Shown here: positions 1 to 48,315 of the stretch, piece by piece
How the letters are laid out: the number at the start of each line of letters is the position of its first letter
How positions within the stretch are numbered: the stretch's first letter is position 1
Source: Squalus acanthias
Lineage: Eukaryota
DNA length: 64,000 nt
Direction: 5' to 3'
Assembly: GCA_030390025.1 (NCBI GenBank)
Contig: CM059432.1
Location: 60,266,001-60,330,000, forward strand
The notes under the pieces: generated by a model
The model's input: only the letters and a program-made list of their open reading frames with translations
Told to the model about the DNA's origin: nothing
The model's database searches: none
Position numbers and translations under genes: made by a program

Positions 1-2397
1 ACACTCACTCCATCACTGTGGCTGAAACACCGCTTGTGTCCCTCCTTGCAGGAAAAGATAGCCCACAATAAGAGGGAGAGAGCAATGACTGGAGGAGGAA
101 CAGCTTCCCTTGCAACATTGACCAGTGCTGAGGAGGCAGCGAACGAGATTGTTGGAGGTGGCGAGGACCTGGAAGTGGGTGATGGAGAGACGGGCACACT
201 AGAGGAAGCTGGTGACATAATAGATTTTCATCCCTCTCAGAAAGCAATGCAATATGATGTTCATAGAAAATCACTTTGTATCATCTGCTCAAAAGGATGT
301 GTCTGCTACATCAATATCAGATGTCTAATTCAAGCCTTTACTCTCCCACCGGATCATCGAGCGCCCCCCTCCCCACGATCCAGGACGAAGACCCGGACAT
401 CTCCTCAGAGGAACCTGAAGACTCTGAGGGACCAGCATCACCAGGACTCAGTGCACCCAGCACCAGCGCAGCAACGCACACCTCGGTGGGGCCCTCGCGA
501 GTTAGTGTAGTGTTGCCACCTGGTCTATCACAGCGCAAAAGTGAGACAGCGACAGCAGTGGAGGGTCCTCATCAGAGGTCGCAGGGCTCTCCTAGCTCTG
601 CTGAGCTGCATGCAGACGCTGTGCCTCTGGGGCCATCCAGAAAAAGAGCGGTTCGTGAAATACAGGAACAAGTGCAGGTGTCTCTGGAAGAGTTTGCCTC
701 CAGGGTTAGTGCGAGTGTGGAGAGAATGGAGGAGTCCATCTCTAACATCAGCACTGCCGTGGTGGTGGCAATGGCGCATGACTGCACCACCATGGATAGG
801 ATGGCAATCTCCGTGGAAAGGATGGCTACCTCAGTGGAAAGGATGGCTATGGCCATGGAGGAAATAAGTCACCAGAGTCAGGAAAACATGGTGACTGTTC
901 AGAATAGACTGACATCTCTGGAGGAGCGATGGGCAGCTATTAAGCAGAGAGACCAGAGCTTCATGGACGTCCTTTTGCGGAGGACTGCCAGTGCAGATAC
1001 GGGTCCTCATGGCCCCCCTGAAGTGCAGCAAGGTGCTCTCCTGCCACTTGCCAGCACTGAGGTGCGGCTGACCCATGAGAAGGATGTTGTTGGCAGGACA
1101 GAAGGAAGTGTGGGTTCCTCTCAAAGCACTCGCATGACAATGCCACTATGGAGCCCTCGGTCAGAGACCCACTTTGCAGAGACAACTGAGATGGCCGTTT
1201 CAGCCCCTGCACAGCCGCAGGAAGAGCAGACTGTTGAAGAGCCCTCCCAGGCTCCCAAACCCAGAGGACGCCCGCCAAAGGCGTCTAAGCAGGCGCAGCA
1301 TCCTAGTCAGCAAGGTGCCTCTACATCTGCTGAAGCCACAGGGGAAGCACCATGTAGAAGCACGCGTAAGAGAAAAAGTAAGCACCTATAGTCACAAGGG
1401 GACTTGGGTGATGTTTCTTTTTTTTCTGACTGTTGTTGGTATATTTTGTCATGTGTTAAAGAGAAATTATGGCAAACAGTTGATTGTGTGGCCTATGTGT
1501 TCTGGGAAGTGGCAAAAGTGCATTGAGGGTTCAGGGCGACTTACATTTGTAATGCTGATGGTAACAGTGATAGGAAATAAGAGACTATAGCAGAGATGAA
1601 GTATGATGTTGGACAAGTGCAATTACAGAGCCATATGGTGGCCACCTATGGTCGAAGAGTAAGCGTATGGTAGTGTGGCATGGCAGTGTGCATACCCTGG
1701 TTGATGGGCAGCAGTGAACTGGAGGGATGCTGCATTGGTCACAACAGGGCATGCAAGGCTCCCCTCGTCCTCGTCCTACTCCTCTTCCCAGGAAGATATG
1801 TGGTGAACCACGTGGCTTCTACTCCCCCGATTATGAGGACCAGGATGAGAGGGCATAAATGTTTCCCATCCCCTTGCTATAGATTTCAATTGAGGTAACA
1901 ATCTTGCAAGCGCACAGTCGAAGTGGCCTGAAATAATTCCATTCATGACACACTGCAGATGGGTGTCAGCTTGAACAGTCAGAAGATCAGTAGATGTGCA
2001 AAATGTTATCCCATATCTACAACAGCAAAGTTGTTGCATTTGAATGTCAGCCTTGTTTCAGGGGCGCTTTTAAAGCGCTCCACCAATGCATACAAATCAT
2101 GTCCTCCAGCAACTCGTCTCCTTGAACCTGGCCTGTTTCTGACTAGTTGGGAAACAGGAGCCAGTAGCAGGAAAATGGGAAACCACTATGAAAATAGGAT
2201 TAGCAAGGCAGTTAACAGGCAGTTAACTGCCTTAACTACCTGTCCCAGCGGTTGGAGGTGGGTCAGTTTGGGAGCGGCTGCACAGACACTCACGAAAATT
2301 GCATGGGGGCGGGTTGGCAGTCTGAAGCCATTTTTCCCGATTTTCCCAACAGACCCGCCTCCGAACCTGCCTCCTCAGGGCTATTAAAATCGAGCCC
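1..2397. mobile_element. PIF/Harbinger element with internally deleted transposase (runs off the window start)
   Basis: Ends in TIR ...TTAAAATCGAGCCC at 2397, like the end at 27096. Myb-like gene on +, short transposase N/C-terminal remnant on - (about 1700-1880). Abuts a CR1 at 2398. Confidence 0.8.
52..1391 (+). CDS. Harbinger Myb/SANT-like accessory protein, exons 2 (52-211) and 3 (352-1391)
   Basis: Exon 2 (cag|EKIAHNKRERAMTGGG...|gtgaca) is typical of Harbinger Myb/SANT proteins. Exon 3 is open, with heptad repeats, PRGRP and RKRK. Its acceptor reads CG rather than the AG seen in the homolog near 33232. Confidence 0.7.
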
Positions 2398-6399: not shown

Positions 6400-6625
6400 G
6401 AACAGCAGATTTCCTTCCCTAAAAGGACAATAGTGAACCAGATGGGCTGTTACGACAATCCGGTAGTTACCATTAATGGTCACCATTACTGATGATTGTT
6501 TTTTATTCCAAATTTATTTACTGAATTTAAATTCCCCAGCTGCCGTGGTGGGATTTGAACTCATGTCGCCAAATTATTAGCCCAGGCCTCTGAATTACTA
6601 GTCCAGTAACATAACCACTATGCTT
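6400..6625 (-). mobile_element. tRNA-derived SINE fragment
   Basis: Reverse complement has a tRNA-like head with A box (AGTGGTTA) and B box (GAGTTCAAATCC). Confidence 0.6.
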
Positions 6626-11612: not shown

Positions 11613-13824
11613 CGATTGTTACTATATTGCAACATCGTTTGTTTTTGATCGTAAGTATTAGCATTTTTGCAAACTGGTAAAAACATTCAGCACTCAGAGA
11701 AATAAAGTACTATTCTATTTTAGTTGGAGTTGTCACTATGCAAAAATCTCATCACTGCAATGAGGTTTTCTTGTTGTAAACTATGCAAAGCTGATAGACG
11801 GTAACATGGGTTTCTAAGAAGAAACCAGTTACATTCTGTCTCACTTCTGGGGACCTGTGCTGAAGTTTCTTATTTTATCACTTTCAGTTTTGGGAATAAA
11901 AAACAAATATAGGCTTTAGTTTATATCTACAAATCATTACAAGCAAATCATGCTAGCTCACCTATGCACAGAGAACTAATATTCACCTTTAAGGATAGAA
12001 CTTGTGTTCCCATGATGGCTCAGCGACATCTTCCAGTGAGGCATACAGACCAGGAACGTCCCAAGAGTGTGCAGAGTTACCTGATCTCAGCTAAGTGAAG
12101 GTCTCGGCAAAACAATTGGTTTGGATTAGGGTGTGAGAATGCAATTGTGTGGACTTTGATTGTGGAAAGAATTGAGCTCAGCTGTGATGTTCTCCCTTGG
12201 TTCAAATAACTGCTGAGGCTCTTGGTTAATACTCATGCATGAATAATTACTTAGATAAGGGTATTGGAGAATGAATGGCACCCATGGAACATATTGTATC
12301 CATCAAGGAGTCAGTATGTTCCAGCAAGGGGAGAAGGGCGAGAAAACTGATAACAAAGAAATGGAACTTTGTACAACTCACATCAAAGCAATTTCGTAGG
12401 CACAGTAATGAAGACGAAAGGACAAATTATCATCAATATCCAGAAACCTGCTCCAAAAATTTGGAATACAAGTGCAATGCTTACATAGATAAGAGCAAAG
12501 AGAAACGCAAATAATCTTTGAATTTTTACATTTTATGGAAGTGTAGCAAAGTGGTCCACGAATAAACTAAGCATGCTTTAGGCCAGCGGTTCCCAACCTT
12601 TTCCTTTATGCGGACCACTACATCGTCATCAAAAGCTTTTGCGGACCACAACGTAAGCAAGCCGTTTAAAACATTTTGTGAATAATATCACAACTTACCT
12701 CTGGCACTATTATTACCCTTCTCTTCACTTGCCATGTTAAATGTGAAGTTGTTCTTCGCCATTCTGTTGCAATTTTTACACTCTTGTCTTGCCTTCTGGT
12801 TTTGAAGCCGCCTGAAGTCTGTGCCATTTACAGTCATGGCCTTAAATCCCTTTTTCTCTTCTGGATGAATTGTTTGTTAGTTCCTTTGAACCAGGCTGGA
12901 CTGTAATGATGCTCAGTACCTTTGCTTTGCATGGGTACACGTTGATCCATTGCATTCAGAATCACCTCCTTGAAGGAACTCCATAGAATAACTACAGCAA
13001 CAACCTCCACATCTAGTTTAAACACTCCCCACAATCTATCTGTCCTGCCGGCCAACACCTCAAACCGTTTTGTTTCGGTGGAACCCATCAGGTCTCTATA
13101 AGCTCCCTCTATTCCGAAAGCTGTAGCACTCTTTCATGAAACGAACCCCTGTTTCACTACAGCAAAGGTTGAGCGACGCTTGGACTGTCTAATTCCCCTC
13201 TGTCTCTCTTGACTAACACATGACACGGGTAGTATTTCAGAAAGTGCTACAATTGATACAGTGCTTGGGACTCCAGTACAATCCTGGAGGGGTGTGTAAA
13301 ACATGTTTTGAAATTAACTGGAGAGAAATGTGAGGTGACAGGTCTCGAGGGGCAGACTGAGGAGAGGGTCTGTACATTGAATGGGGACATGTCAAAAAGA
13401 GCAAGATGAGTTAGGGATTCAGAAACACAAACCTCTCCGAAGGGTTACTTCCTCCCCGCCTGTTCCGAATTTTTGCCAGACACTTTTCAGATTTAACATG
13501 GATGGAGTGGGGGAGGTGGGGGGGCGGGGGGGTGTTTGTGTCGTCACAGGCAAAGCTCTGCCCGAACCAAACTCCCACAGTCACAGGATTAGAATGGCGG
13601 AGGCCGGCAGATTCCCCTTCAATGTTGGTGCAATCATTCTTTTCACAATTAAGTGCTCTTTTTCTGTTACTTTCGATTTACATACTCGGTTTTTATCGAA
13701 CAGTGATTATTTTATATCGGAATCATGTTTAACGGATGTGGTGTGTTCATTATCTGTACAATAACTCAGTGACCCAGTGTGAGAAGTAAAACACAAACCG
13801 CCCAGCGTAGGGCTCGAACAATCC

Positions 13825-13901
13825 GGACAGTTGTTATCACAGTTGTTTAGAGCGTGGTGCTGATATCGCTAAGGGCACGGGTTTAATCTGTGTATGGGTC
13901 A
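13825..13901 (+). pseudogene. Degenerate tRNA-Ile-like sequence
   Basis: CAGTTGTTTAGAGCGTGGTGCTGATATCGCTAAGG...TGGGTCA aligns to recalled vertebrate tRNA-Ile. T arm and B box damaged; T runs follow. Confidence 0.7.
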
Positions 13902-14018
13902 TCAGCAGTTTATTTCTTACTTTTTCGGTTTCTCCTGATATTGAAAATCCAGACTTTACAAAAAATCTACACAAACTGTCAGGGGGAATCATAAGAGAAT
14001 ATTTTGTTCTTTAAAAAA

Positions 14019-14092
14019 TGCCGTGCTACGAATCGAACCCAGGCTCTCCTAGTATACTAAACAGGCGCTTTGACCAACTAAGCCCCAGAGCC
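14019..14092 (-). pseudogene. Degenerate tRNA-Thr(AGT)-like sequence
   Basis: Reverse complement GGCTCTGGGGCTTAGTTGGTCAAAGCGCCTGTTTAGTATACTAGGAGAGCCTGGGTTCGATTC..., immediately followed by T6. Acceptor stem is poorly paired. Confidence 0.75.
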
Positions 14093-17000
14093 AAGTCACG
14101 GCTGAAACTTCTTTGCTCCCCTCACTGATATCTGGTACCTGTGGTATCGCGTTCCACATTCCAACCACTCTTTGCATAAACAAGTTTTTCCTGAATTCCC
14201 TCCTGCATTTATTATTGAGGATCTTATATTTATGACATCTAGATTTACTTAGTGTGACTCAAGAGTACTGGCGGCTGCGGTTGTATAAAGCCCACTGTCA
14301 AAGACCCACACTCCGTACATGCACACCTGAGGTTGTATAATAGTGGGGACACTGGTGAAGGTTGCTGCATTGAGGGGGCACTGGTTGGGTTTATATGATA
14401 GAGTGGACCAGTACTTGCCGTTGTGCGGTAGTGAGGTGGGAAATATTTTGGTGAATTTGTCTGGAGCTGATTTTTCGGCCCAGTTGATTTGCTCCTTCCA
14501 GAAAACCAACCCCCCTCCATCCACGACAGGTTTTCACTTCCATCAGCTCATCCCCAAAACCCAGCTTTAAACTGCAATAAAAACACTGGAACCACACGGC
14601 GGGTCATTCAACATCTGTGGAGACAACAGACACGTTTATTTTAGGGATTTGGACCATTTTTTCACGGACCACCTGCAGTACCCTCGCGGACCACTGGTGG
14701 TCCGCGGACCACAGGTTGGGAAACACTGCTTTAGGCTTCGTATGGCATTGCATCCCCTGTGCCATCCAATGCTGATCGTTATTGTCAACCTGAATGTACA
14801 CAAGAGTGGGCCGTTGCAGATTCCCATTCTGATTTTCCATCTCGCTTGTAAGGAGACACCTGGCCTTCAGTACTTTGTTACAAAGCTTGCCCAAGATCAG
14901 GAGCTCAGCAAAGTAAGGAACTAAAACTGTGATGCAACTATTCTGTATTCCTGTGCATTCATGCTCAAACATGATCTTGTGCAATCTAATTGTTACTATA
15001 TTGCAATATGGTTGCTAAACTGTCAATTAGAGATATATGTTAACTGTGGTTAAAAAGAGGTGATATCTGTTATGTCTGAATAAACACTCAAATTGGTGGT
15101 AATAACTAACTGCTTGTATTTACAGTCCCTCTCGAAGATTCCCGTCAAAGAATAGCAAAAGCAACAAAAAAGTATAACTGCTACAAAGTGCTTACTCCTG
15201 TCAGGGGGCCATCTAGTGTTCAGTTAACACTACCTATCACTTTGGCAGGATCAACAGGGTGGATTTATCTCAAAAAAGTCATTGTCTGATGATACAGTGC
15301 ATTAGTATAGAACATGTGGTTGCATAGAGCAGTGGTTCTCAAACCCCAGGGGTCCATGGAGATGTTCCAGGGGGTCTGCAAAACATTGACCAATTATTCA
15401 TTGGAAAAGATCTCTGAAAAATTGCAGACTATAAAAATGAACCAGTGAGGAGGCAGGACCAGAATGTTCACGTTCGGGTTCTTTCCAATCATGGTTTCCC
15501 CACCGGGGGTCCGCGGCCCCCTAAGGGTTCACGAGAAGATTTCAAGGGGTCCGCCAAAATAAGTCTTAGATGATAGCAGGCAGAGCAGTGTTGCTCCCTG
15601 CCGTTAATCCGGGGATTCCCAGTGGCGGGTCAGTTTGCCTCTTGTGACAGGCAGAGTGGGCCGATCTGTGAGTGACGGTAAGAAACAGGATTATTCCCCG
15701 GGTTACAGGGGTCGCACTCTGTTACTGAGTGAACTCCGCTCTATTCAGGACGCGGCTCTGATAGCGCAGGTGTTGAGCTCTAATATATTATATTACACGA
15801 GAGTGACTTTAAAGTGTAACAATACTGGACTTAAGCGGGAGCAGCGGCAGCAACATAAAGAGTGGGAGAGAAGGCCCAGGACACAGCGGACCTGAGCGGC
15901 GATTTAAAGAACAAAAATAAACAAGGAGTGATGTCAGGACAGCAGGTAGGTGATTCGTTGGTGAGTATTACAGATTTTTTTCTTTAAACTAAGCTGTGGA
16001 ACTATAACTATTAGGTTATTAAATATTAACTTAACTAGATAAACAAATTAATTAATACAACTACAAATAATCGTTTGATTAAAAACTTTAACTAATTAAA
16101 TAAGCAAATAAGTAAAAAAAAGTCTAGAGATGGCAGGGCAGGTTATGTGTCGGGACTGTAGAATATAGGAGTTTGTGGACAGCGAGACTGTCCTGGATTC
16201 CCACATTTGCAGGAAATGTCTCTGCCTTCAGTCACTCCGGCTCAAAGTCATTGAGCTGGAGTGTGAGTTAGAGACACTTTGAAACATAAGGGAGGGGGAG
16301 GAATTTCTGGACAGTTTTATTCAGAATACAGTCACACCCCAGAGGCAAGCACAGGTTCAGGAAAGGGAGGGTGTGACTGTTAGGGAGCCGGGTAGTGGGG
16401 ATTTAGGAGAGGTTGAGAAGGAGGTCCCGCAGGCACTGGTCCTGTCCAATAGGTACGATGTACTCGCTACCTGTGAGGACAAGGAGAAAGACTGCGGGGA
16501 GGACAGCCACAATGCAGACCAAGGCACCGTGGCTCAGAAGGCAGTCCAAGGGGGGGAAGAGCAGAATAGAAATGTGGTAGTGATAGGGGATTCTATAATT
16601 AGGGGAAGAGATAGCGTCCTCTGCAGCCAAGAATGAGAATCCCAAAGGGTGTGTTGCCTACCCGGTGCCAGGGTAAGGGATATCTCATGGCGGCTGGAGT
16701 GGAATTTGGAAATCTAGTTGTCGTGGTCCATGTCGGAACAAACGACTTAGGTAGGAACAGGGAGGAGGTCCTGCTGAGGGAGTATCAGGAGTTGGGAGCT
16801 AAATTAAAAAGCAGGAACTCGAGGATAATAATCTCTGGATTATTGCCCGAGCCACTTGCAGATTGGCATAGAAATAGTCAGACCAGGAGAATTAACACGT
16901 GGCTAAAGGGATACTGTGGGAAAGAGGGGTGCCTTTTCATGGGACACTGGCACCAGTACTGGGATAGAAAGGAGCTGTACCAATGGGACAGGCTCCACCT

Positions 17001-17201
17001 GAACCGGGATGGGACCCGTGTCCTAGCAGAAAGGGTACATAGGGAGGTGGCAAAGGCTTTAAACTGGTAAGATGGGAGAGGGAGGGATCTACAAGAAATG
17101 AAACCAGCCTAAATATAAACAAAACAGGAAAGAAGAGCATAGAAAAGTGTAAAGTAAGGGAGGACATTGATGGCCAGGGAATAAATAGAGTTATAGAACA
17201 G

Positions 17202-17469
17202 GGAGGAGAAATTCGGTATTGCCCCGTTTGGGGCGCAATTATCGGCCGGGCGCAAAGTTTAGCACCTGGCGCTAATTATCGCCTCCGACTGCAAACTTGG
17301 CTTCTATCGCCCCTGGAGGTGATTGGAGCGCTAAATCAGGCGCTACACACCACTCTTAAGGCGCAAACATCAGGGAGCGGTAGTGTTTAGCGCTGCCGCA
17401 AAATGTCTGGTCAATTTCGCGAACAAAATTAGGGCGCTAATGAGGCGCAAAGCAACTGAATTTTCCCCC
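17202..17469. mobile_element. Short Harbinger MITE inside CR1
   Basis: TIRs GGAGGAGAAATTC / GAATTTTCCCCC, apparent CAG TSD, homologous to the left end of 44705-48808. Confidence 0.8.
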
Positions 17470-18045
17470 CAGGAGTTTAAAAAGATGGTTAAAAATAAAG
17501 TGAGAGGAACTGCTATTAAAAATGAGTTAATCTGTCTGTACAGCAATGCGCACAGTGTCCGTAATAAAACAGGGGAGCTGGAGGCAATCATGCGTTGCGA
17601 GGAACCAGACATAGTATGGAATACTGAGACATGGCTACAGAAAAATCATGACCGGGAATTAAAACTTGCAGGGTATAACATATTTAGAAAAGATAGAGAG
17701 GGAAAAAGGGGAGGTGGAGTAGCTGTTCTTATTAGGGATAACAAAATGGCAGTAGAAAAAAGTGACACAGCTATCAGCAAAACAGAAATAGAGTCCATGT
17801 GGATAGAGATAAAAGATAATAAAGGATCAATCACACTAATAGGGGTAGACTACAGACCACCTTTTATTGGAAGGGAGGTGGAGGAAGAAATATGCAAACT
17901 AATTAGGGAAATTAGTAAAAAACATAGAATAATAATCATGGGGGATTTCATCTACCCTGATATTATTTGGACAGAAGAGGTACGTAAAAGGGATAAGGGA
18001 CTGGAGTTCCTACAATGTGTACAGGACTCCTTTCTCACCCAATAT

Positions 18046-18222
18046 CTTTGATGTAAGGACACCTTCCCTGAAAGATTGTATCTCTGCAGTTTCTGTGTTT
18101 ATATTCTGTGAACTTTTGTAGATTTACTCATTGTAACTTTACCTGAGGAAGGGGCGATAGCTCCGAAAGCTTGTAATTTTAAATAAATCTGTTGGACTAT
18201 AACCTGGTGTTGTGCGACTTCT
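18046..18222 (+). mobile_element. Penelope-like 3' end (pLTR) fragment inside CR1 ORF2
   Basis: 6-bp TSD CAATAT (18040-18045, 18223-18228); hammerhead core followed by AATAAA and a GTTGGACTATAACCTGGTGT tail. Confidence 0.75.
18139..18176 (+). ncRNA. Minimal type I hammerhead ribozyme motif
   Basis: TTAC-CTGAGGA-a-GGGGC(GATA)GCTCC-GAAA-GCTT-GTAA: CUGANGA and GAAA cores, stems I and II, AGCT palindrome replacing stem III. Confidence 0.75.
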
Positions 18223-19845
18223 CAATATGTAAAAAGCCCAACAAGGGAGGATTCGCTATTGGATCTATTAATGGGGAATGAACCAAAGCAGATAAGAGAA
18301 GGAAAAGTAGGGGAACATCTAGGCAATAGTGACCATAATATTATACGTTTTAAGATAATAATTGAGAAAGACACAAGTATGACAAAGACCAGGGTAATAG
18401 ATTGGAGAAAAGCTGATTTTGAGGGGCTGAGAATAGAACTTGGGAAAATAAAATGGACAACAATGTTGGCAAACAGTGAGGTACAACAGCAATGGGAAAC
18501 ATTTAAAACGGTGTTCAACAGAGTCCAGGAAAAATATATTCTGCTAAAAAACAAGAACAAGCTAAACACTAATGAGACACCGTGGATGAATAAAACCATA
18601 AGGGGAAAATTGAGGGTAAGGAAAGAGGCATACATTAAGTACATGGACAACAGGGAAGAGCATAATAAGGGGGAATATGAAGAGATTAGAAAAGAAGTCA
18701 AAAAACAATTAGGAAGGCAAAGAGGAACTATGAAATTAAATTATTAAGGAACATAAAACAAAATAGTAAAATATTTTACAGGCACATCAATAAAAAAAGG
18801 AAGGTTGGGATGTGAATAGGGCCACTAAGGGATGGACAGGATAATACCACAGGCAGCGATAGAGAGATGGCAGAAATATTAAATAATTACTTTGCTTCAG
18901 TATTTACCAGGGAGATAGAACAGGTGGACATGACATAGGATGATGAGATTAGTAATGAGATAAGTGCAATTAAAATAAAACGAGAAGATATATTAAATAA
19001 ACTAATGAAACTCAAAGAGGATAAAACCCCTGGTCCTGACTGATTACACTCGCGCATTTTAAAAGAATCTAGGGAAGAGAAAGCAGAGGCATTACTACAC
19101 ATATTTAGTAATTCATTAGAAAAAGAGGACTGGCGGATAGCTAACGTAATACCTATATTTAAGAGGGGAGATAGAAAATGTCCAGGGAACTATAGACCAG
19201 TAAGCTTAACATCGGTGGTAGGAAAAATAATGGAATCCCTACTCAAGGAGAAAATAGAAGAACATCTAGAAACCAAAAATACAATAATAAATAGTCAGCA
19301 TGGATTTCAAAAGGGAAAGTCTTGCTTGACCAACCTCATTGAATTTTTTGAAGAGGTAACAGAGAGAGTAGACAAGGGTAATGCAGTAGATGTAATTTAT
19401 CTAGATTTTCAAAAGGCCTTCGATAAGGTACCCCATGATAGACTGATGAATAAGGTCAAGGAATGCGGAGTCAGGGGACAAGTAGCAGAATGGATAGTTA
19501 GCTGGCTTCAAGACAGAAAGCAGAGAGTAGGGGTAAAGGGTAGCTATTCAGAGTATCAGAAGGTGGGTAGTGGTGTTCCACAAGGATCAGTGCTGGGACC
19601 ACTGTTGTTCACAATTTATATTAACGATTTAGACTTTGGAATCAAAAACACAATTTCTAAATTTGCGGACAACACCAAATTAGGGGAATAGTCAATACTG
19701 AGGAGGACTGCATCAAATTACAAGAAGACATTAATAAACTTGCAGAATGGGCATATAATTGACAAATGAAATTCAACACAGGTAAATGTGAGGTATTACA
19801 TTTTGGTAAGAAAAATTGGGAGGTCACTTATTACTTGGAAACTAA

Positions 19846-20593
19846 GGGGGAGAAATTCACTATCGCCTTGCTTGGGGACGCTAATTTTTAAAAGTTTGAA
19901 AAGTTAGCACCAGGCACGATTTCAAACTTTTGAAAAATTCGCCGTTTGCGCTCCAAAAAGTAAGTGGAGAACTAACTCAAGCTCTCCACTTCCTTCTTGG
20001 AGCGCAATCGGCAGCAGGCGGGGCGGAGACTTCAGTAGCACTACACACTGGGCCGCACAGCGCTGCCGCGTTCAAAGGCTCCTTCCCTCCCTTAAAGGGA
20101 AGGGCCATCGCTGCAGGCTGTGCAATCTAAAAAGTACCTACCTGGACCACCAAGGCAGCCGCGATCTTGCGCAATCAGCCCGGCACTCAAGCAGAGTGCC
20201 GGGCTGATCGATCATGGGCAGGAACCCGCGAAAAAAACTGGAACAAGAAAGGTAAGTTTTTTTTTACTTACCTCGGCCACCTCGCCTTTACTCACCACCC
20301 CCGAAGCGGCCGGCCACCCAATGCACGCCTCCTGCAGCTGTCGGTGTTTTTGACCGGCGCTGCTGCAGGGGGGCGGAATTCAACTTCGGGTCCGGGGTGC
20401 TACCGGGGCGATGCACACGCTGATGATGTCTCAATCTCTGGGCGAAAGAGATCGGGGTGCAACGTTGTAGCGCCGCCGCAAAACTCTTGCCGAATATGGT
20501 GGAAGTTGATATCCATGCTGTGCCCAGTCGCAAAGGCATTTGCGCCCCCCGGGGGCGCTAATGGGAAGTGCAAGGGTACCCAATTTCGCCCCC
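19846..20593. mobile_element. Harbinger MITE inside CR1 ORF2
   Basis: TIRs GGGGGAGAAATT / AATTTCGCCCCC with TAA TSD on both sides; CR1 sequence resumes afterwards. Confidence 0.9.
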
Positions 20594-22271
20594 TAAGAAT
20601 CTAAATGGGGTAGAGGAGCAAAGGGATCTCGGAGTACAAATACACAAATCACTAAACGTATCAACACAGGTTAACAAGGCCATTAAAAAAGCAAACCAAG
20701 CACTAGGGTTTATTTCTAGAGGGATAGAAGTAGTGAAGTTATGCTAAACTTGTATTGAACCTTGGTTAGACCACACTTGGAGTATTACGTACAAATCTGG
20801 TCGCCATATTATAAAAAGGATATAGAGGCACTGGAGAGGGTGTAGAGAAGATTTACAAGGATGATACCAGAAATGCAAGGGTATATCTATCAGGAAATGA
20901 TGAACAGGCTGGGTCTCTTTTCTCTGGAAAAGAGAAGGCTGAGGGGTGACCTAATAGAGATCTTTAAAATCATGAAAGGTTTTGACAGAGCAGATACAGA
21001 GAGAGTGTTTCCAATTGTGGGGAAGAGCAAAACTAGAGACCATCAATATAAGATAGTCACCAAGAAATCAAATAGGGAATTCAGAAGAAACTTCTTTACC
21101 CAGAGAGTGGTGAGAATGTGGAACTCACTACCACAGGGAATGGTTGAAGCGAATAGCATAGATGCATTTAAGGGGCGGTTATATAAGCAGATGATGGAGA
21201 AGGGAATAGAGGGTTATGCTGATAGAGTTAGATGAGGAAAGATGGGAGGAGGCTCGAGTGGAGCATAAACGCCAGCATGGACTGGTTGGGCCGAATGGCC
21301 TGTTTCTGTGCTGTATATCCGATGTAATCCTATGTAATAATGGTTTGTAACTCAGCAGAGAGCAGGAACGAGCTCTGCAGAGCAGAGATTGGAGCCGTCT
21401 GTCCATTTAATGTTCACTTATCAGCCCTATTTTACCATCTGTGCTCCAGGCTCTACAATCATTTACTTTCAGTTTCATGGGAGGCCGTTTAGTTTATTAA
21501 ACCAGGACCGACAGGAACATGGAGGGCAGATTACTGTCAGCATCAGATCCCAGGGGTCCTTCAACCAAAAAATGTTGAGAACCACTGGCATAGAGTGCCG
21601 GGATGCATGTTTGATCCAGCATATGTTGATTGCCTAATCTCAAATGCCTTACTATGGGCAGGTGTCGAAGAAGTGCCAGATGAACGGACTGTCATCCTGG
21701 ATAAGGAACCTGTTCAGAGTAACATTGGTAGAGGTTTGGGAGTAGATCTGTTACTTGCCCCTTTTGGCCAGGTAGGATAAAAAAGGGAAAAAGGAGTTTA
21801 TCCTAAGAAGAAATAATTACCTAGGCTTCTCGAACACCTTCTAATGGCCAAAGCTGGAACAGACCTGAGAGTATATTGTTAGCCCACCCTATCTCAGTAA
21901 AGAATTGCATTAGTGCACTTGAATTATGCACCTACACTGATTATATAATTTGTACAGTGCTTCATTTTCATAAAAAATAAAACTTCTGGTTTACTGTTTG
22001 AAGATCATTGAACTCATTTAAACGCTACAGGGCTGCCAATGATTTTTGTGTTAAAGGTTGGCCCTATGATGTAATCACTTCAATCTTCACAATCTCTACT
22101 TTTCATTCTCTGCAAAATTGGACTTTAAAGCTGGCTATCAGTCAATGAAACGCTTTTACTTTTAAGAAAAAAATTGCTCCCACCTCCAAAATTCTTCTTT
22201 TATATAAAAAGAAACACAATAGTACAAATGAAACAATTTAAGAATGCTGCAACTCTGTCATCTGTACTTAC

Positions 22272-28934: not shown

Positions 28935-30633
28935 TGAGTGTCCTGGAATATTTAGTTCCCACCCTTGGCCACTTTGCAACCACGTCTCCGTTATGGCTAT
29001 TAGATCAAACCTGTTAATTTCTATCTACGCTATTAATTCAACTATTTTGTTGCGACTGCTTCGCGCATTCAGATATAGTGCCTTTAGCTTTGACTTATTT
29101 CTGTTTCTCCCTGATGTCACCTTAGTCACTGATGCCCTATTACCTTTGTTACTCTCTCTGTCCCTTCCTGACCCACTCTGCTTATTTTTACCCAAAACTC
29201 TACTCTGCTCTAGAGCCTTGACATTTCTCTCACTGCTTTTAAATTTACTCTTTCCTGAATCCTCCCACCACCCCCTTCATTAGTTTAAAGCCCTGTCTAC
29301 TGCCCTAGTTATTCGGTTCGCCAGGACACTGATCCCAGCCCGGTTTAAGTAGAGCCCGTTCCAACGGAACAGCTCCCTCTTTCGCCAGTACTGGTGCCAG
29401 TGCCCGATGAACTGAAACCCCTTCCTCCCACAGGTAAAACGGATTGCCAATTTGCCATTTGCTTTTGCGCTACCACCAACTTCTCCATCAAAGATTCGGC
29501 TTAACACAACTATGTTGATAGCCATAGGCAATTTTATAACATTTTGGTAAATCAACAATAATTAACAAAAAGTTACAGGCTTCTAGTAGTCTCAATCTAC
29601 CAAAAATTGAAAAACTGTTGGGGAAGAGCAGAGGAAGCTTCACTCAGTAATCTGCATCTAACCTGTGCTTATGCTGACACTAGGTGCTCAAAATGGAAAA
29701 GTGTTTCATTTTGCAGGGCCAGCATTCTTCACCTTGATGAGCATAAAATTAACCACATTTTTTTTTAATTGAAAGGTTTTCCGTCCGTAAAATCAAATCT
29801 TATATCCTGTTACTATATACATTATAGCTGATAGTACCTTGGCAATACACTTTCGTTTTAGTTCACTTTACCAAGAAGAGCTAAATGGTCCAGACTATGC
29901 ATCATTGTCTTTTGAACTGTATGCAACATTACACACAGTACATCTTGTTGTTTAAAGGTGGAGTGTATAAAGTTACTTACAGTCTAACTGTGGATGGACT
30001 GTAATATTCATATTTTTACTTAAAGAAATACTATCTTCACATGAAAAAAGTGTTTGGTAAATACTTTATCATTTGGGAAGTGAGAACAGCTAGAAGAGAC
30101 AATGGGCTCGAATTTCATCGGGCCGTTGAGGCGGGATTGGAGGCGTGTGGGTGGTTAAAATTGCAAAAACTGGTGGGCGGGCCCAACCCCGCCTCCATCC
30201 CGCCTCCAAGCAATTTTCATTAAATCGTGTCTACTAGTCCCGTCTCCGTCCCGCCTCCAAGAGGCGGGATAGGCCGTTAAGGCCCTTAACAAGCACTAAA
30301 TTGCCTCTATAATGCCATTTTGATAGGCCTTTGTGATTTTAACCCTTTTCCCACGTGAAGCACGCCTGTTCTGAAACACGACGGTGAAACCTGGCGGTAG
30401 CACAATTGGATTGCTGACTATCAGCTGCAGCTCAACCATTAAATAGGAGATTTGATCAGCCATCATTTGCAGGTGGCAGGACTTTGCTGTCTCAGGTCTG
30501 GGGGAACTTTTAGAAGGCATAACCACAGCTGTGGAAGTTTGGAGCCTGACACCCATCTCCAGTGCGACCTCCTGGGAAACCCCTCTTGCCACCTTGACTG
30601 AGCGCTTCCTCAACTGAGGCATATACCAGAAGC

Positions 30634-31890
30634 ATGGGAGCCATTTATTTCCTTACCTTCTGGACATCAGATGAAGATGAAGACCAGCCGCGGCACCAGC
30701 AGAACCATGAACAACAGCAGCACCAACAGCAGCAGCACCAACAGCAGCAGCAACAACAGGAGCGCCAAGCTGCTGCTCACCCACCTGAAGCTGCACAGGC
30801 CAGAAGGGGCCAGCGCATGGAAGCCTGTCGGCGCAGGAGATACCCCCCAAACAGGGTCTACAGACACAGGGTCAGCTACCTCAACATGTCTGAGCAGCAG
30901 TGCCAATGGCGGCTCCGACTTTCGCGAGAGGTAGTGGGTGACATCTGCGCAATGCTGCAACAAGACCTAGAGCCCAGAGGACCAGGTGGACAACCCTTAC
31001 CAGTGGCCGTCAAAGTCACCACCGCACTCAACTTTTTTGCCTCAGGCTCATTCCAGGGATCAGCAGCAGACATCAGCGGCATCTCCCAGGCGGCCGCACA
31101 CACTTGCATCATGCAGGTAACGGATGCCCTCTTTGCCATCGCGCACAATCACATCCATTTCACCAAGGATTAAGCAAGTGTCACGGCGCGTGCGGTTGGA
31201 TTAGCTAATCTGGCAGGCTTTCCAAGGGTGCAGGGCGTCGTTGACTGCACACATGTGGCCCTAAGGCACTCCATTGCAATCCAGGTATTTTTGTCAACCG
31301 CAAGGGCTTCCACTCCCTTAACGTTCAGCTGTTGTGTGAACACAAGAAGGAAATTTTGCATGTTTGTGCCAAGTACCCTGGCAGTTGCCATGACTCCTTC
31401 ATACTGCGCCAGTCTAGTGTGCCTCCGCTATTTAGTCCGGCAGACCAACATAACGGATGGCTACTTGGAGACAAGGGCTGTCCCCTGAAGACGTGGCTAA
31501 TGACGCCGTTGAGGAGCCCATCCAACGAAGCTGAGGAGAGCTACAACTCCAGCCACATGTTCACCAGAGCCATAATCGAGCAAACCATCGGTTTGCTGAA
31601 GATGCGCTTCAGATGCCTGGATAGATCAGGTGGAGCTCTGCAGTACTCAGCAGCCAGGGTCTCCAGAATCGTCGTAGTTTGCTGTGCACTTCACAACATG
31701 GCACAGCGTCATGGCTTGCAGATTCCTCAGGACCAAGTGGCTCGTCACATATCCTCCTAAGATGAGGAAGAGGAGGAGGAGAGCGAAAACGAACATCTTG
31801 CAGAGGCCCATCAACCAGGGGCAGCAGTACGCGAGAACATTGCTGCCCGGGTTGCAAGGAACGCACTCATCTTGGCCAGATTTGCTTAGC
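30634..31890 (+). pseudogene. Harbinger (HARBI1-like DDE) transposase with stops and a frameshift
   Basis: [59 protein letters not shown]. Confidence 0.95.
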
Positions 31891-32145
31891 CTAGCCAATC
31901 AAGCACTTTTGCCTCGCAGCTTCTTACCTGAGCATCGACAATGGCCAAGAACCAGCGGATTCCTAGCAATTTGAACACCATACTGACAATTGCAAGTTAT
32001 CCTAAGCCCTCAATGTGGAAGTCCCATTCGCGAAATGACACACGCCACAACTACAGCAGTAGCCATCAGATTTTTTATTTACAGTAATCATCTGATGGTT
32101 TTTTAACATAAAACATCAAAATTCCCCAAATGACTACCCTTGTGA

Positions 32146-34759
32146 CTATTTGTGCACTATCTTTCTCTTATGCGTGCTCCTACGTGGTGCTTCCCCTGTG
32201 GCTTCAGCAGATGTGGAGGCCCCTTGCTCACTTTCTTGCTGCTCCTGTCTCGACACCTTTGGCGGGCATCCTCTGGGGTTGTGAACCTGTGAGGGCTCGC
32301 CAACAGTCTGCTGCTCCTGCGGCTGTGCAGGGGTTGAGACGCCGATCTCAGTTGGGTGCGGACTCTGGTGGGGCTTTGACCGAGGACTTGTCAGTGGCAT
32401 GGAAGTGTGAGCGCTTGGAGAGGAGCCCCCACTTTCTTGTTCTCTGCAAACAACATCCCTCTCATGGGTCAGGTCCATCTCAGCGCTTGCAGGTGGATTG
32501 AGAGCACCTTGCTGACATCAGTGGGGCCATGGGGACCCATATCTGCACTGGAAGTCCTACTCAGAAGGACTTCCATGAAGGTCTGGTTTCTGTGTTCAAT
32601 AGATGACCATCGCTCCTCCAGAGATGTCATTCTATTCTGAACACTCACCATGTTTTCTGCACTCTGGCGACTTATCTCCTCCATGGCCGCAGCCATCCTC
32701 TCGTCTACTGTAGCCATCCTTTCGACGGAGATTGCCATCATTTGCATGGAGGTTGCCATCCTTTCTGTGGTGATGCGTTCATGCGCCAATGACTCCACAA
32801 AGGCTCTGCTCATGTTCGCAATGGACTCCTCCATTCGCTCCACACTCGCAACGACCCTGGAGACAAAACCTGCCAGAGACTCCTGCATCTGTTCCTGGAG
32901 TTCCAGCACTGCTGATCTTATGGATGGACCCAGAGGCAGAGGGTCGACATGCAGCTGAGCCGAGCTGGGAGAGTCCTGTGCCCGCCGACTAGGACTCTCC
33001 ACTGCTGTCCCTGTTTCCACTATCTGCTGATGCTCACTTGTGAGCTGTGATACACCAGGTGACAACACTACTCTATCTCGCGATGTTCCCTTCGAGCTGT
33101 GAGTGTCTGCGCTGGTGCTGGGTGCGCTGAATTCTGCTGACGCTGCGCCCTCAGAGGTTGCAGCTTACTCTGAGGAGTCTTGAGGCTCATGCTCTTCCTC
33201 CTGCAAGTGGGGACGGGTGCTTGCGATGGTCCTGGGGGGGAGTAAAGGAAAGAGTCAGAGATGTGAGGCCAAGGTTACATGCACATTGCATATTGCAGAT
33301 GATCATAAGTCCATCTGTTAGAGCTTCAGAATCATTATCAGCGACTCATGCAATGTCATTGAGAGAGATGGAAAACTATTCTGTCACCAGCTTGCTGTGA
33401 TGCGCCCGTCTGTCCGTCCCCCACTTGGGAATCTTCCTCCACTCCCACCATCTCCAGGACCGCCTCCTACCAGGTGGTGAGCTGGGCTACTGAGGATGGC
33501 CCTCCTCCTGTCCACGCTCTTTCCCTCTTATTGTGAGCTCTCTTTTCCTGCAATGAGGGAGACAAGTGGAGTTTGAGTGAGAATGAAGGAGTGAGTGTAG
33601 AGAATCCATAGCATAGATGCTTAGGAGACAAAGATGGAGTGAGGTGGCAAGACCAAGGGCCCTCCTTGTGTGTTGTAAGTTGTAATTGCATCACAGTGAT
33701 AGGGAGTGTGAGGGCTGCATAGTTGAATAGTTAGGTGAATGTGACCATAGAGAGAGAGGGAATGGGTAAGGGTGCATGGATGTCAGTGTCAAGTGGGATG
33801 TGGAGGAAGAGATTGCTAAAGCTGAGTGCTGGTGAGGAGAGGCAATGGGGATCAGATTGAGGGTGATGGGAAAGTCATACTCACTTTTCCAGTGCGCAGA
33901 AGGTCATGAAGCCTCTTCCTGCACTGAAGCCAGGTTCTGCGGGTTATTGACAAAGAGTTGACCTCTGCCACCTGGATCCACACAGCCTTGGTTTGCTGGG
34001 GAGGCTTCTTCCTCTTTACGATAGCAAAATACTGCGGATGCTGGAAATCAGAAATAACAACAGAAAACGCTGGAAAAACTCAGCAGGCCAGGCAACATCC
34101 GTGGAGAGAGAAAGACAGTTAATGTTTCAGGTCGAAACCCTTTGTCGGAACTGAGAGAGCAAGAAATAAACAGATAAAAATGCAAGGGGGAGGCTGGGGG
34201 GAGGAATAAAAGAACAAAAGGGATGGTCTTTAGTGAGTAGAGACATTGAGAGATGCTCAAGGCAAGACGAGATGGTAATGGGACAGGTTGAGAAACAAAA
34301 GGTAAGGTGTGAAATGCTGGCAGAATCAGAGACAGCTGCCGTGGGGGGAGAGAGAGAAAAAAAGGAAAAAGGCACGGACCAAAAGAGTGGATAAAATGTA
34401 TACATATGTGGTAGGGGCCGGGGTTATGATCTGAAATTGTTGAACTCGATATTGAGTCCGGAAGGCTGTAAAGTGCCTAAACGGAAGATGAGGTGCTGTT
34501 GCTGGAGCTTACGCTGCGCTTCCGTGGAACAATGCAAGAGGCCGAGGACGGTGAGGTCTGAGTGAGCGTGGAGGGGTGAATTAAAATGACAAGCGACCGG
34601 AAGCTCGGGGTCACCCTTCCGGACTGAACGGAGGTGTTCCGCAAAGCGGTCACCCAATCTGCGTTTGGTCTCCCCTTTGTTTGCTCTTGCTCCCTCTACT
34701 AAAGCCTGCAGGGCAACGTCATCAAAGTGGGGTGCAGACCTAGGTCTCTGGCTGGCCAT
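32146..34759 (-). pseudogene. Harbinger Myb/SANT-like gene (3 exons) interrupted by Penelope
   Basis: Exon 1 MASQRPRSAPHFDD... and RTWLQCRKRLHDL|gtgagt; exon 2 EKRAHNKRERAWTGGG; exon 3 homologous to 352-1391. Confidence 0.85.
34020..34679 (-). mobile_element. Penelope-like element 3' fragment (partial GIY-YIG endonuclease plus pLTR)
   Basis: GETKRRLGDRFAEHLRSV...PVACHFN...LGTLQPSGLN; degenerate hammerhead at about 34116-34153. Confidence 0.9.
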
Positions 34760-47229: not shown

Positions 47230-48315
47230 CGGTGTCTTATCAGGCATTCACGGACGGCCCTTGCAGAGGCAATATTGAGCGCCTCCCTCCCACGTTGCTG
47301 CTGCTCATCCTCCTCTTCACCCTACTCTCCCTCTTCCTCCTCCTGAGGTGGTGCACCAATCCCTGGTGGCAATGGCTGGGTCCTCATAATTGCAAGGTTG
47401 TGAAGCATGCAGCACACAACAATGAAAAGCGAGACTCGCTCGGGAGAGTACTGCAGGGCTCCTCCAAGGTGGCCAAGACACCGGAACCGTTGCTTCAAGA
47501 TGTCGATCGTCTGCTCACTGAGGTTCCTGGTGGCGCTGTGGCTCTCACTGTAGGCGAGCTCAGCAGGAGTGTTGGGGTTACGGAGCGGTGTCATCAGCCA
47601 GGTGCAGTGTGGATAACCCTTGTCCCCGAGCAGCCAGCCACGAGGTTGGCGCAGTGGTTGGAACAGGTCTGGGACACCAGTCTGGTGCAGAATGAAAGCA
47701 TCGTGGCTGCTGCCAGGATAGCGGGCATTAACGGCGAGGATGCGCTGTCTGTGGTTGCAAACCAACTAGACATTGAGAGAATGGAAGTCTTTGCGGTTGC
47801 AGAAAACCTTTGTATTTTCATGAGGTCCCCGCAATGTCACATGCGTGCAGTCAACGGCGCCCTGAATCATGGGGAAGTCCGCTATCCTAGGTCATGGGGA
47901 AAGAGATGTACTCCCTTCTCCTTTTGTAGAGAACATTTGTGACCACACGGATGCAACAATGGATGGCGAACTGGGAGATATTCACTATGTCCCCAGTTGA
48001 AGCCTGGAAGGAGCCACTGGCATAGAAATTCAGAGCCACCGTCACCTTCACTGCCACCAACAGAGACGTCCTGGTCCTGAGCTGAGGCTGCAGATCTGGT
48101 TGCAGGAGGTGGCAGAAGCGCAGCCTTCTGAAAAACTGCTCCTCGGACAAATGAATGTAGAATTGCTCCCGGAATACCCTGGGAGGGTAAGGTCTCCTGT
48201 GCAGAGGCCTGTTGGCCCTCCTCCCTCTAGCCACGCTAGCCACTCTCTATCTGCGCCTCTGCTGCCTCCGAAGGTGAAGCTGGAGGACGACGCCCTGAGC
48301 GAGTACAGCCCCCAT
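47230..48315 (-). pseudogene. Harbinger (HARBI1-like) transposase, disrupted
   Basis: ALNFYASGSFQ, RYPGSSHDAFIL, WLLGDKGY, EQTIDILKQRFRCL, CCMLHN. Confidence 0.95.

What the first reader, a model, noticed from the sequence alone, without database searches (positions are those of the whole stretch)
12584..14728. hAT DNA transposon carrying remnants of three tRNA genes
Seen: between intact TIRs and an 8-bp TSD, within 300 bp, lie a tRNA-Lys-like 3' fragment (13799-13819, -), a tRNA-Ile-like unit (13825-13901, +) and a tRNA-Thr(AGT)-like unit (14019-14092, -) followed directly by T6. There is no CCA or poly-A. Inference: DNA-level capture of a tRNA gene cluster (Pack-type), which could spread Pol III/TFIIIC sites and inflate tRNA pseudogene counts.
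Basis: partly seen in the sequence, partly recalled or inferred. Interest (0 to 1): 0.7.

Follow-up and report, generated by a model that had tools for sequence, protein, structure and literature searches.

The report
Jumping gene carrying dead tRNA genes
A 2.1-kb cut-and-paste jumping gene picked up a piece of its host's DNA with three transfer-RNA genes and has since spread the decayed remains to many places in this genome and its relatives; the route is unusual, but the passengers look dead.

Summary
12584-14728 has a perfect 8-bp target duplication and 14/16 terminal inverted repeats. Three related organisms show the clean empty site, so it is a real insertion, most likely recent. Against ARAGORN-called animal tRNA genes the units match tRNA-Lys(CTT) 3' end 19/21, tRNA-Ile(AAT) 54/69 and tRNA-Thr(AGT) 61/74, above shuffles. 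All are decayed. The element is a repeat family: summed contig depth is about 800 times the flank in the own-species run and about 40-85 times in three relatives, and contigs of other copies bridge the tRNA block to its neighbours. The block is therefore family cargo, not a late insert in this copy, and it matches no SINE head in the window. Best reading: a non-autonomous Buster/Charlie-type hAT took up host DNA with part of a tRNA gene cluster and amplified it as a passenger; the cargo seems to have been damaged before the latest burst. Not shown: the donor locus, a second copy read end to end with its own TSD, any Pol III or TFIIIC activity. The Ile unit may have been added separately. A high-copy, tRNA-bearing variant of multicopy Pack-TIRs; moderate interest.

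The parts
12576..12583 (+). Left copy of the 8-bp target site duplication (CTTTAGGC, TA at positions 4-5)
   Evidence: single copy at the empty site of three relatives, table 5
12584..12599 (+). Left terminal inverted repeat
12584..12654 (+). Left hAT end with two GCGGACCAC subterminal motifs (12610, 12641); inner limit approximate
   Evidence: an X13 contig joins 12654 to 14687, i.e. a short sister element with the same ends (table 5)
12655..13790 (.). Non-coding interior shared by the family; possibly holds a very old LINE ORF2 remnant on the minus strand near 12880-12980 (weak)
   Evidence: continuous high depth in all 4 runs; no Pfam hit in six frames; 9/32 identities, E 0.006 in a single comparison with a window CR1 frame; no database hit
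13799..13819 (-). 3' 21 nt of a tRNA-Lys(CTT) gene: intact B box (13811-13819), T4 run 7 nt downstream
   Evidence: 19/21 to Lys(ctt) of L174; B-box match; flank printed
13828..13901 (+). Decayed tRNA-Ile (anticodon GAT here, AAT in best match); 5' end damaged, A box and B box broken; T5 run 19 nt downstream (13921-13925)
   Evidence: 54/69 to Ile(aat) of L182, 5 of 15 differences CpG-type; no B-box match; no cloverleaf
14018..14092 (-). Decayed tRNA-Thr(AGT): B box intact (14030-14038), one extra base in the anticodon stem, broken acceptor pairs, followed at once by a T run (14013-14018, T6 counting the discriminator)
14138..14276 (-). Fragment of the 3' coding end of a CR1-group LINE, part of the family interior
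   Evidence: tblastn 54% over 46 aa, E 5e-14 to window frame 20846-21235; blastn 77% over 112 bp; spanned on both sides by contigs in X10, X13, X18 (table 8)
14586..14728 (-). Right hAT end with GCGGACCAC motifs (14664 with one mismatch, 14686, 14697, 14704); shared with sister families that have other interiors
   Evidence: 18 contigs of X18 diverge before 14586 (table 7)
14713..14728 (-). Right terminal inverted repeat
14729..14736 (+). Right copy of the target site duplication

Best explanation
A non-autonomous hAT element (Buster/Charlie type) keeps only its two ends, about 70 and 140 bp, which a transposase encoded elsewhere recognises (inferred). In an ancestor of this organism and its three sampled relatives, about 1.9 kb of host DNA came to lie between such ends, including part of a mixed tRNA gene cluster (Lys on minus, Ile on plus, Thr on minus, with their T-run terminators) and old LINE debris. 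The likely route is template switching during repair of the element, as in the gap-filling/FoSTeST models for Pack-TIRs (inferred, not shown). The loaded element was then cut and pasted many times (shown: empty site in 3 relatives; repeat-level depth in 4 of 4 runs), with a further burst in this organism's lineage. The tRNA genes are passengers: they decayed by CpG loss and internal deletions, some copies lost the Ile or Thr unit, and the form that burst here seems to have been damaged already (inferred from depth shares). What is left that could matter are two intact B boxes and one near-complete Pol III promoter with terminator per copy (sequence shown, activity untested).
For: Ends and TSD. 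Empty site: joint 12573 to 14727 skipping 2153 = 2145 + 8 in X10, X13 and X18, one contig each at flank depth; X1 holds both filled junctions with 1 and 0 differences. Median element depth over flank depth 808 (X1), 84, 43, 39; tRNA-block bins 645/994/477, 56/47/10, 27/32/13, 39/41/5; the 13901-14000 bin is almost all spacer and is as deep as the rest. Contigs of other copies (about 9-17% different from this one) bridge the block: X1 13735-13931, 13837-13988, 14003-14154; X10 13594-13860, 13987-14441; X13 13690-13935. Gene-like layout: three isotypes in mixed orientation, Ile-Thr gap 116 bp, where 57 gaps in fetched animal-type tRNA clusters have median 83 and all four orientations; a T4 or longer run at 7, 19 and 0 nt behind the units, where 46 of 48 panel genes have one within 9 nt and random window positions have one within 25 nt 13% of the time. 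Other copies carry the letters of the real tRNA at 13889 and 13890, and an X18 contig (depth 49.9) carries 11 extra bases that by eye restore the Ile 5' end (tables 3, 4). Already-damaged founder: only 246 of 2965 depth units in X1 lack the extra base at 14051, against 33.5 of 33.5 in X10 and 117.5 of 143.8 in X13 (5.7 of 19.9 in X18).
Against: The donor cluster was not found and could not be sought (0 of 51 metagenome loci had any BLAST match or tRNA). No listed contig runs from a TIR to the tRNA block, so the link in other copies rests on overlapping pieces and even depth; no second TSD was read. The tool warns that summed depth is no copy number, and true tRNA genes near 80% identity may add depth in the tRNA bins. 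Only 40 of 405 variant rows, 15 of 36 joints and 32 of 5694 pieces were shown. Among the listed pieces none bridges the Lys-Ile part in X18, and none bridges the Thr unit in X13 or X18. The Ile unit has three weak marks of a retro-copy (rival 1), and its T5 run lies further off than in any panel gene with a run. No transposase sequence is present, so the superfamily rests on ends and TSD.
Confidence: 0.7

Rival explanations
1. Stepwise assembly. The founder held a Lys gene and a Thr gene; the Ile unit came later into one master copy, as a reverse-transcribed copy of edited tRNA-Ile (inosine 34 copied as G, CCA end) or by a second template switch, replacing most of the Lys gene. The rest of the history is as in the best explanation.
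For: Anticodon position A>G at 13862; the three bases after the unit match CCA at 2 of 3; an X13 contig (depth 37.8) joins 13816 to 13907, leaving the unit out to within 5 nt of its 3' end, and X10 and X13 contigs join 13816 to 13962 (table 5).
Against: Each mark is weak: a 2-of-3 match has a chance of about 0.16 and A>G is a common change. About 20 nt of non-tRNA sequence lie between the Lys piece and the Ile 5' end; there is no poly-A; the positions that modified bases tend to miscopy (G26, A58; recalled knowledge) are unchanged. Plain deletions from one ancestral cluster give the same joints. The letters between the two sides of the 13816-13907 joint are not known.
Confidence: 0.15
2. Composite birth instead of capture into one element: two hAT ends that had inserted near each other, in or beside a tRNA cluster, were used together by the transposase and moved the DNA between them.
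For: The interior is a 1.9-kb mosaic of host-like DNA (tRNA genes, CR1 piece) with no transposase trace; left and right ends differ inside the TIR and each also occurs with other interiors (tables 5, 7).
Against: No inner TIR is left: the TIR pattern finds only the two outer ends and one other element. No donor locus to test.
Confidence: 0.08
3. The units are heads or pieces of tRNA-derived SINEs or of the tRNA-headed LINE of this genome, inserted into the element.
For: Earlier AI notes report abundant tRNA-headed SINEs and LINEs in this genome (unchecked leads); a CR1 3' piece lies 45 bp from the Thr unit; an 8-bp direct repeat (13791-13798 / 13969-13976) brackets Lys plus Ile.
Against: Best local scores outside the element are 21, 27 and 30, within the range of 10 shuffles each (21-26, 25-35, 26-32), against 36, 78 and 91 for true tRNAs; none of the 11 other B-box sites in the window scores above 30. 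The CR1 piece lies upstream of the Thr unit, the wrong side for a SINE tail, and the T run would stop Pol III at once. Copies that lack Ile keep the Lys piece, against one TSD-bounded Lys+Ile insert. Only SINEs present in this 64 kb were compared.
Confidence: 0.04
4. The cargo is useful to the element: B boxes recruit TFIIIC and keep the element in open chromatin or shield it from silencing, so tRNA-bearing copies out-replicate the others.
For: Two B boxes survive. The Thr bin is 0.59 of the element's median depth in X1, the lineage with the burst, against 0.12, 0.31 and 0.14 in the relatives (figures). CpG observed/expected is 0.85 in the block against 0.49-0.52 in the rest of the element.
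Against: The Ile B box is destroyed by CpG decay; B-box-like 9-mers occur at chance level in the window (13 found, 13.5 expected); tRNA genes start CpG-rich; one master copy can dominate a burst by chance; copies without Thr or Ile exist.
Confidence: 0.08

Closest known systems
Multicopy Pack-TIRs of animals, e.g. Pack-hAT-N8_XT of Xenopus tropicalis (Tan et al. 2021, PMC8277862; seen: 12 passages and methods section 14)
   Same: A non-autonomous hAT with host DNA between its ends, moved again after capture, absent at the orthologous site of relatives.
   Different: Tan et al. found only four multicopy cases (1.4%); the frog example has three copies and another five, and the example cargo is a 291-bp UTR piece. 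'tRNA' and 'shark' have 0 occurrences in their main text (supplements not read). Here the cargo is about 1.9 kb with three tRNA gene remnants, depth points to hundreds of copies, and the family is shared by four organisms. Their 90% parental-copy rule could not be tested.
Buster-family hAT MITEs such as Mar (Depra et al. 2012, PMC3517528; seen: 4 passages); vertebrate Charlie elements (recalled)
   Same: 8-bp TSD of the form nnnTAnnn, short TIR that begins CAG, no coding capacity.
   Different: At 2.1 kb it is not miniature, and the interior is host-like DNA, not a deleted transposase gene.
Pack-MULEs of plants (as summarised in PMC8277862)
   Same: TIR element that carries and multiplies host fragments.
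   Different: Other superfamily and kingdom; cargo here is Pol III genes.
tRNA-derived SINEs (definition in PMC8969392, 3 passages seen)
   Same: Spread tRNA-like sequence with A and B boxes through a genome.
   Different: SINEs move through RNA with one 5' tRNA head and a LINE-type tail; here three isotypes in both orientations sit inside a DNA transposon with their terminators.
Mobile elements that carry Pol III genes: Cassandra TRIMs (5S rRNA), 5S-like pieces in CACTA Caspar and in an Aspergillus Helitron; Dada transposons that target tRNA genes (all recalled; not seen in any call)
   Same: A mobile element linked to Pol III genes; precedent that such cargo is not unique.
   Different: Those carry 5S sequence or insert into tRNA genes; none that I recall carries a multi-isotype tRNA cluster inside a hAT.

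Membership tests
Non-autonomous hAT (Buster/Charlie branch) | 8-bp target site duplication | tested here: met
   8/8; single copy at the empty site
Non-autonomous hAT (Buster/Charlie branch) | TSD of the form nnnTAnnn | tested here: met
   CTTTAGGC; rule from PMC3517528; one site only
Non-autonomous hAT (Buster/Charlie branch) | Short TIR with repeated subterminal motifs | tested here: met
   14/16 TIR; 5 of 5 exact GCGGACCAC matches of the window lie in the ends
Non-autonomous hAT (Buster/Charlie branch) | Insertion as one unit (filled and empty alleles) | tested here: met
   empty site in X10, X13, X18; filled junctions in X1
Non-autonomous hAT (Buster/Charlie branch) | A cognate hAT transposase with the same ends in the genome | not testable with these tools
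   no genome held; no Pfam hit in the element's six frames
Multicopy Pack-TIR (Tan et al. 2021) | Both termini of one TIR element around 100-5000 bp of other sequence | tested here: met
   about 1.9 kb between the ends
Multicopy Pack-TIR (Tan et al. 2021) | Unique parental copy, at least 90% identical, not inside a TE | not testable with these tools
   the units are 78-90% identical to foreign tRNA genes, so the 90% rule may well fail by age
Multicopy Pack-TIR (Tan et al. 2021) | Several copies with distinct TSDs | tested here: inconclusive
   repeat-level depth and bridging contigs in other copies, but no second TSD was read
Multicopy Pack-TIR (Tan et al. 2021) | Cargo is not a retro-copy | tested here: inconclusive
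   gene-type flanks for Lys and Thr; weak retro-like marks for Ile
tRNA-derived SINE | One 5' tRNA head followed by a body and LINE-type or A-rich tail | tested here: not met
   Thr unit ends in a T run, CR1 piece lies upstream of it, three isotypes in two orientations
tRNA-derived SINE | Head shared with dispersed SINE copies | tested here: not met
   no match above shuffles elsewhere in the window; rest of genome not testable
Functional tRNA gene | Passes covariance-model or ARAGORN threshold and folds as a cloverleaf | tested here: not met
   22.6 bits against 29; 0 genes at default; no cloverleaf for either unit, while the L177 Thr control folds as one and the L182 Ile control nearly so
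Functional tRNA gene | Intact B box | tested here: inconclusive
   met by Thr and Lys units, not by Ile; binding untested

The most novel reading that the evidence does not exclude
A DNA transposon has seeded hundreds of live TFIIIC/Pol III sites through this genome: its two intact B boxes and the Thr promoter-terminator unit are bound or transcribed, they favoured the sub-family that burst in this lineage, and cut-and-paste elements are thus a second route, beside SINEs, for spreading Pol III promoters and insulator-type sites in vertebrates.
Probability: 0.1. Interest if true: 0.72.

Novelty: new variant of a known kind. Interest (0 to 1): 0.42.

Why it matters
Multicopy Pack-TIRs were reported as rare in animal genomes (four cases with few copies, PMC8277862). 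This family appears to reach tens to hundreds of copies in four related organisms and carries tRNA genes, a cargo I did not find in ten literature searches. It shows a DNA-level route to dispersed tRNA pseudogenes, which are usually put down to retrotransposition (own knowledge), and it gives lineage-specific filled and empty sites in which the effect of a new B box on chromatin could be tested directly. If the cargo is inert, as is most likely, it is a curiosity for repeat curators and a caution for tRNA annotation.

Tried and rejected
No whole genome is held, so no copy count, no donor search, no second TSD. ARAGORN at default found nothing; at -ps80 or lower it gives 31 or more calls in the window, mostly noise, and even at -ps70 it calls neither the Ile nor the Lys unit in the block. 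Rfam does not see the Ile or Lys unit at E up to 10, and on the whole window not even the Thr unit. A spaced Ile-plus-Thr pattern in metagenome contigs gave 51 loci, 0 with a BLAST match to the element and 0 with a tRNA: chance hits. Thr and Lys patterns found 0 loci in viral contigs. A transposase remnant was sought in six frames with stops read as X: 0 Pfam families. My by-eye idea that 12666-13313 is a decayed CR1 frame got no tblastn hit, no database hit and only E 0.006 over 32 aa: left as weak. Expression: no RNA holder listed. Earlier findings of the scan hold no look-alike of the element and no note under 'hAT' in this genome or under the word set; the hits are prokaryotic or phage and unrelated. 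Paper searches found no description of a hAT or Pack-TIR with tRNA cargo; I saw listings only, apart from passages of PMC8277862, PMC3517528, PMC11162782 and PMC8969392 and the abstract and outline of PMC13343379. Repbase and Dfam entries, subscription journals and supplements were not seen and may hold this family. The loose ends behind 13816 look by eye like a continuation of tRNA-Lys; this was not tested by alignment.
Full report
Setting. The window is repeat-rich animal DNA with many LINE-like and Harbinger-like reading frames (judged by eye). Earlier AI notes on the same genome call it shark-like; I did not test this. No assembly is held, so evidence on the family comes from contigs of four sequencing runs laid on 12201-15200 at 80% likeness: X1 (organism A) and X10, X13, X18 (organisms C, E, G; two studies). 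I laid 4 of the 22 listed runs.

The element. 12584-14728 is bounded by CTTTAGGC on both sides and by 16-bp arms that pair at 14 positions. The motif GCGGACCAC has 5 exact matches in the window, all in the two ends. The TSD fits nnnTAnnn, given as the Buster-family consensus in PMC3517528 (passages). Six frames give no Pfam family, so the element is non-autonomous and its superfamily rests on ends and TSD.

It moved as one unit. In X10, X13 and X18 a single contig at flank depth joins 12573 to 14727, skipping 2153 bases, which is the element plus one TSD copy. X1 holds both filled junctions with 1 and 0 differences; X1 may be the source sample, so only the empty sites are independent. Flanks differ from C, E and G by 16 of 635, 17 of 635 and 29 of 744 bases. 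C and E share two changes that G lacks, so the empty site is seen in two separate branches, and insertion on A's branch is the simplest history (inference).

The three units are tRNA-derived. Rfam and ARAGORN see only the Thr unit, below threshold. To get references I scanned public collections with short patterns. Stray animal-type contigs in bacterial bins and viral contigs gave 196 ARAGORN-called tRNAs, 124 distinct, in 158 loci. Best matches are Lys(ctt), Ile(aat) and Thr(agt) with scores 36, 78, 91; shuffled units reach at most 28, 33, 33. Identities are 19/21, 54/69 and 61/74 plus one extra base. The panel was chosen with these patterns, which favours a match; still, 21 of 25 Lys-pattern loci and 5 of 8 Thr-pattern loci carry the pattern inside a gene of that isotype. 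Neither long unit folds as a cloverleaf. Five of 15 Ile differences are CpG-type and two of them destroy its B box; Thr and Lys keep a B box.

They look like genes, not SINE heads. The three isotypes point in both directions, with 116 bp between Ile and Thr; 57 gaps in the fetched clusters have a median of 83 bp and all four orientations. T runs follow the units at 7, 19 and 0 nt; 46 of 48 panel genes have one within 9 nt, and random positions have one within 25 nt 13% of the time. The Ile run is thus further off than in panel genes. Outside the element the window has no match above shuffles, and none of 11 other B-box sites, among them two SINE-like heads near 6560 and 62617, scores above 30. 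The CR1 fragment at 14138-14276 lies upstream of the Thr unit, the wrong side for a SINE tail.

The block belongs to the family. All 21 bins inside the element are covered far above flank depth in all four runs: median ratios 808, 84, 43, 39; lowest 360, 10, 13, 5. The tool warns that summed depth is no copy number, so I read this only as hundreds in A and tens in the relatives. Contigs of other copies bridge the block to its neighbours: X1 13735-13931, 13837-13988, 14003-14154; X10 13594-13860, 13987-14441; X13 13690-13935. Among the 32 listed pieces (of 5694) none does so for Lys-Ile in X18 or for Thr in X13 and X18, and none runs from a TIR to the block. Other copies carry the real tRNA's letters at 13889 and 13890, and an X18 contig has 11 more bases that by eye restore the Ile 5' end. 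Copies without a unit also exist: joints 14018-14118 (X10, X13), 13816-13962 (X10, X13), 13816-13907 (X13). The Thr bin is thin in the relatives (0.12-0.31 of the median against 0.59 in X1). In X1 only 246 of 2965 depth units lack the extra base in the Thr anticodon stem, so the form that multiplied in A seems to have been a pseudogene already. Only 40 of 405 variant rows and 15 of 36 joints were shown.

How it most likely works. Shown: hAT-type ends, insertion as a unit, repeat family in four organisms, decayed tRNA cargo shared by many copies. [quoted passage not shown] I put 0.7 on this. The main rival (0.15) is that the Ile unit was added separately: its anticodon has A>G, the next three bases match CCA at 2 of 3, and one contig leaves it out to within 5 nt of its end; each mark is weak, about 20 nt of non-tRNA sequence precede it, and there is no poly-A. 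Composite birth from two neighbouring ends (0.08), SINE origin (0.04) and benefit to the element from TFIIIC binding (0.08) are less likely.

Comparison and novelty. It works like a multicopy Pack-TIR. Membership under the rules of Tan et al. is open, since the parental copy and distinct TSDs could not be checked. That survey found four multicopy cases (1.4%) with few copies, and its main text has no occurrence of 'tRNA' or 'shark' (supplements not read). Ten searches of the open literature gave no description of a hAT with tRNA cargo, but Repbase, Dfam and subscription journals were not seen, and mobile elements with 5S cargo are known (recalled). I rate it a new variant of a known kind.

Verdict. 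Observation confirmed with small corrections; interpretation supported, with donor and function open. Interest 0.42. The boldest reading, that the family spread live TFIIIC/Pol III sites and gained from them, has probability about 0.1 and would merit about 0.72.

Noticed in passing
window 15330-21587: A second hAT-type element, 6.26 kb: TIR CAGTGGTTCTCAA at both ends and a perfect 8-bp TSD GCATAGAG (15322-15329, 21588-21595; TA at positions 4-5). It encloses decayed LINE frames at about 16100-21240, probably nested insertions.
   Followed up: partly
X13 joint 12654-14687; X18 loose ends at 14586 and 14698: Sister elements share this element's ends: a very short form in organism E, and forms with other interiors and a right TIR that perfectly matches the left TIR here in organism G.
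   Followed up: no
window 13701-13800: Depth peak above the rest of the interior in X1 and X10 (24543 and 2775), with many loose ends near 13651-13783: perhaps a piece of another repeat just before the Lys fragment.
   Followed up: no
window 13988: Several contigs in X1 (5) and X18 (4) leave the alignment at this point with a similar AT-rich continuation: a sub-family with another spacer between Ile and Thr, or the donor's own spacer (table 7).
   Followed up: no
window 12549-12562: A copy of the subterminal motif, reversed and with one mismatch, lies just outside the left TSD; chance, or a trace of an older related element.
   Followed up: no
window about 6500-6620 (-) and about 62560-62650 (+): tRNA-like SINE or LINE heads with B boxes; the second scores 58 against Asn(gtt) and 55 against Lys(ctt) of the panel. 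Unrelated to the three units.
   Followed up: partly
window 30598-31760 (+), 47322-47765 (-), 267-1391 (+), 32146-33164 (-): Frames that by eye resemble Harbinger transposase and its partner protein, in several decayed copies (self-match 1-1400 to 32137-33598). Family name recalled, not tested.
   Followed up: no
L172-L209: Several bacterial genome bins in the genome collection contain contigs with dense animal-type tRNA clusters (for example L173, L176, L198, L188-L190), most likely host contamination.
   Followed up: partly
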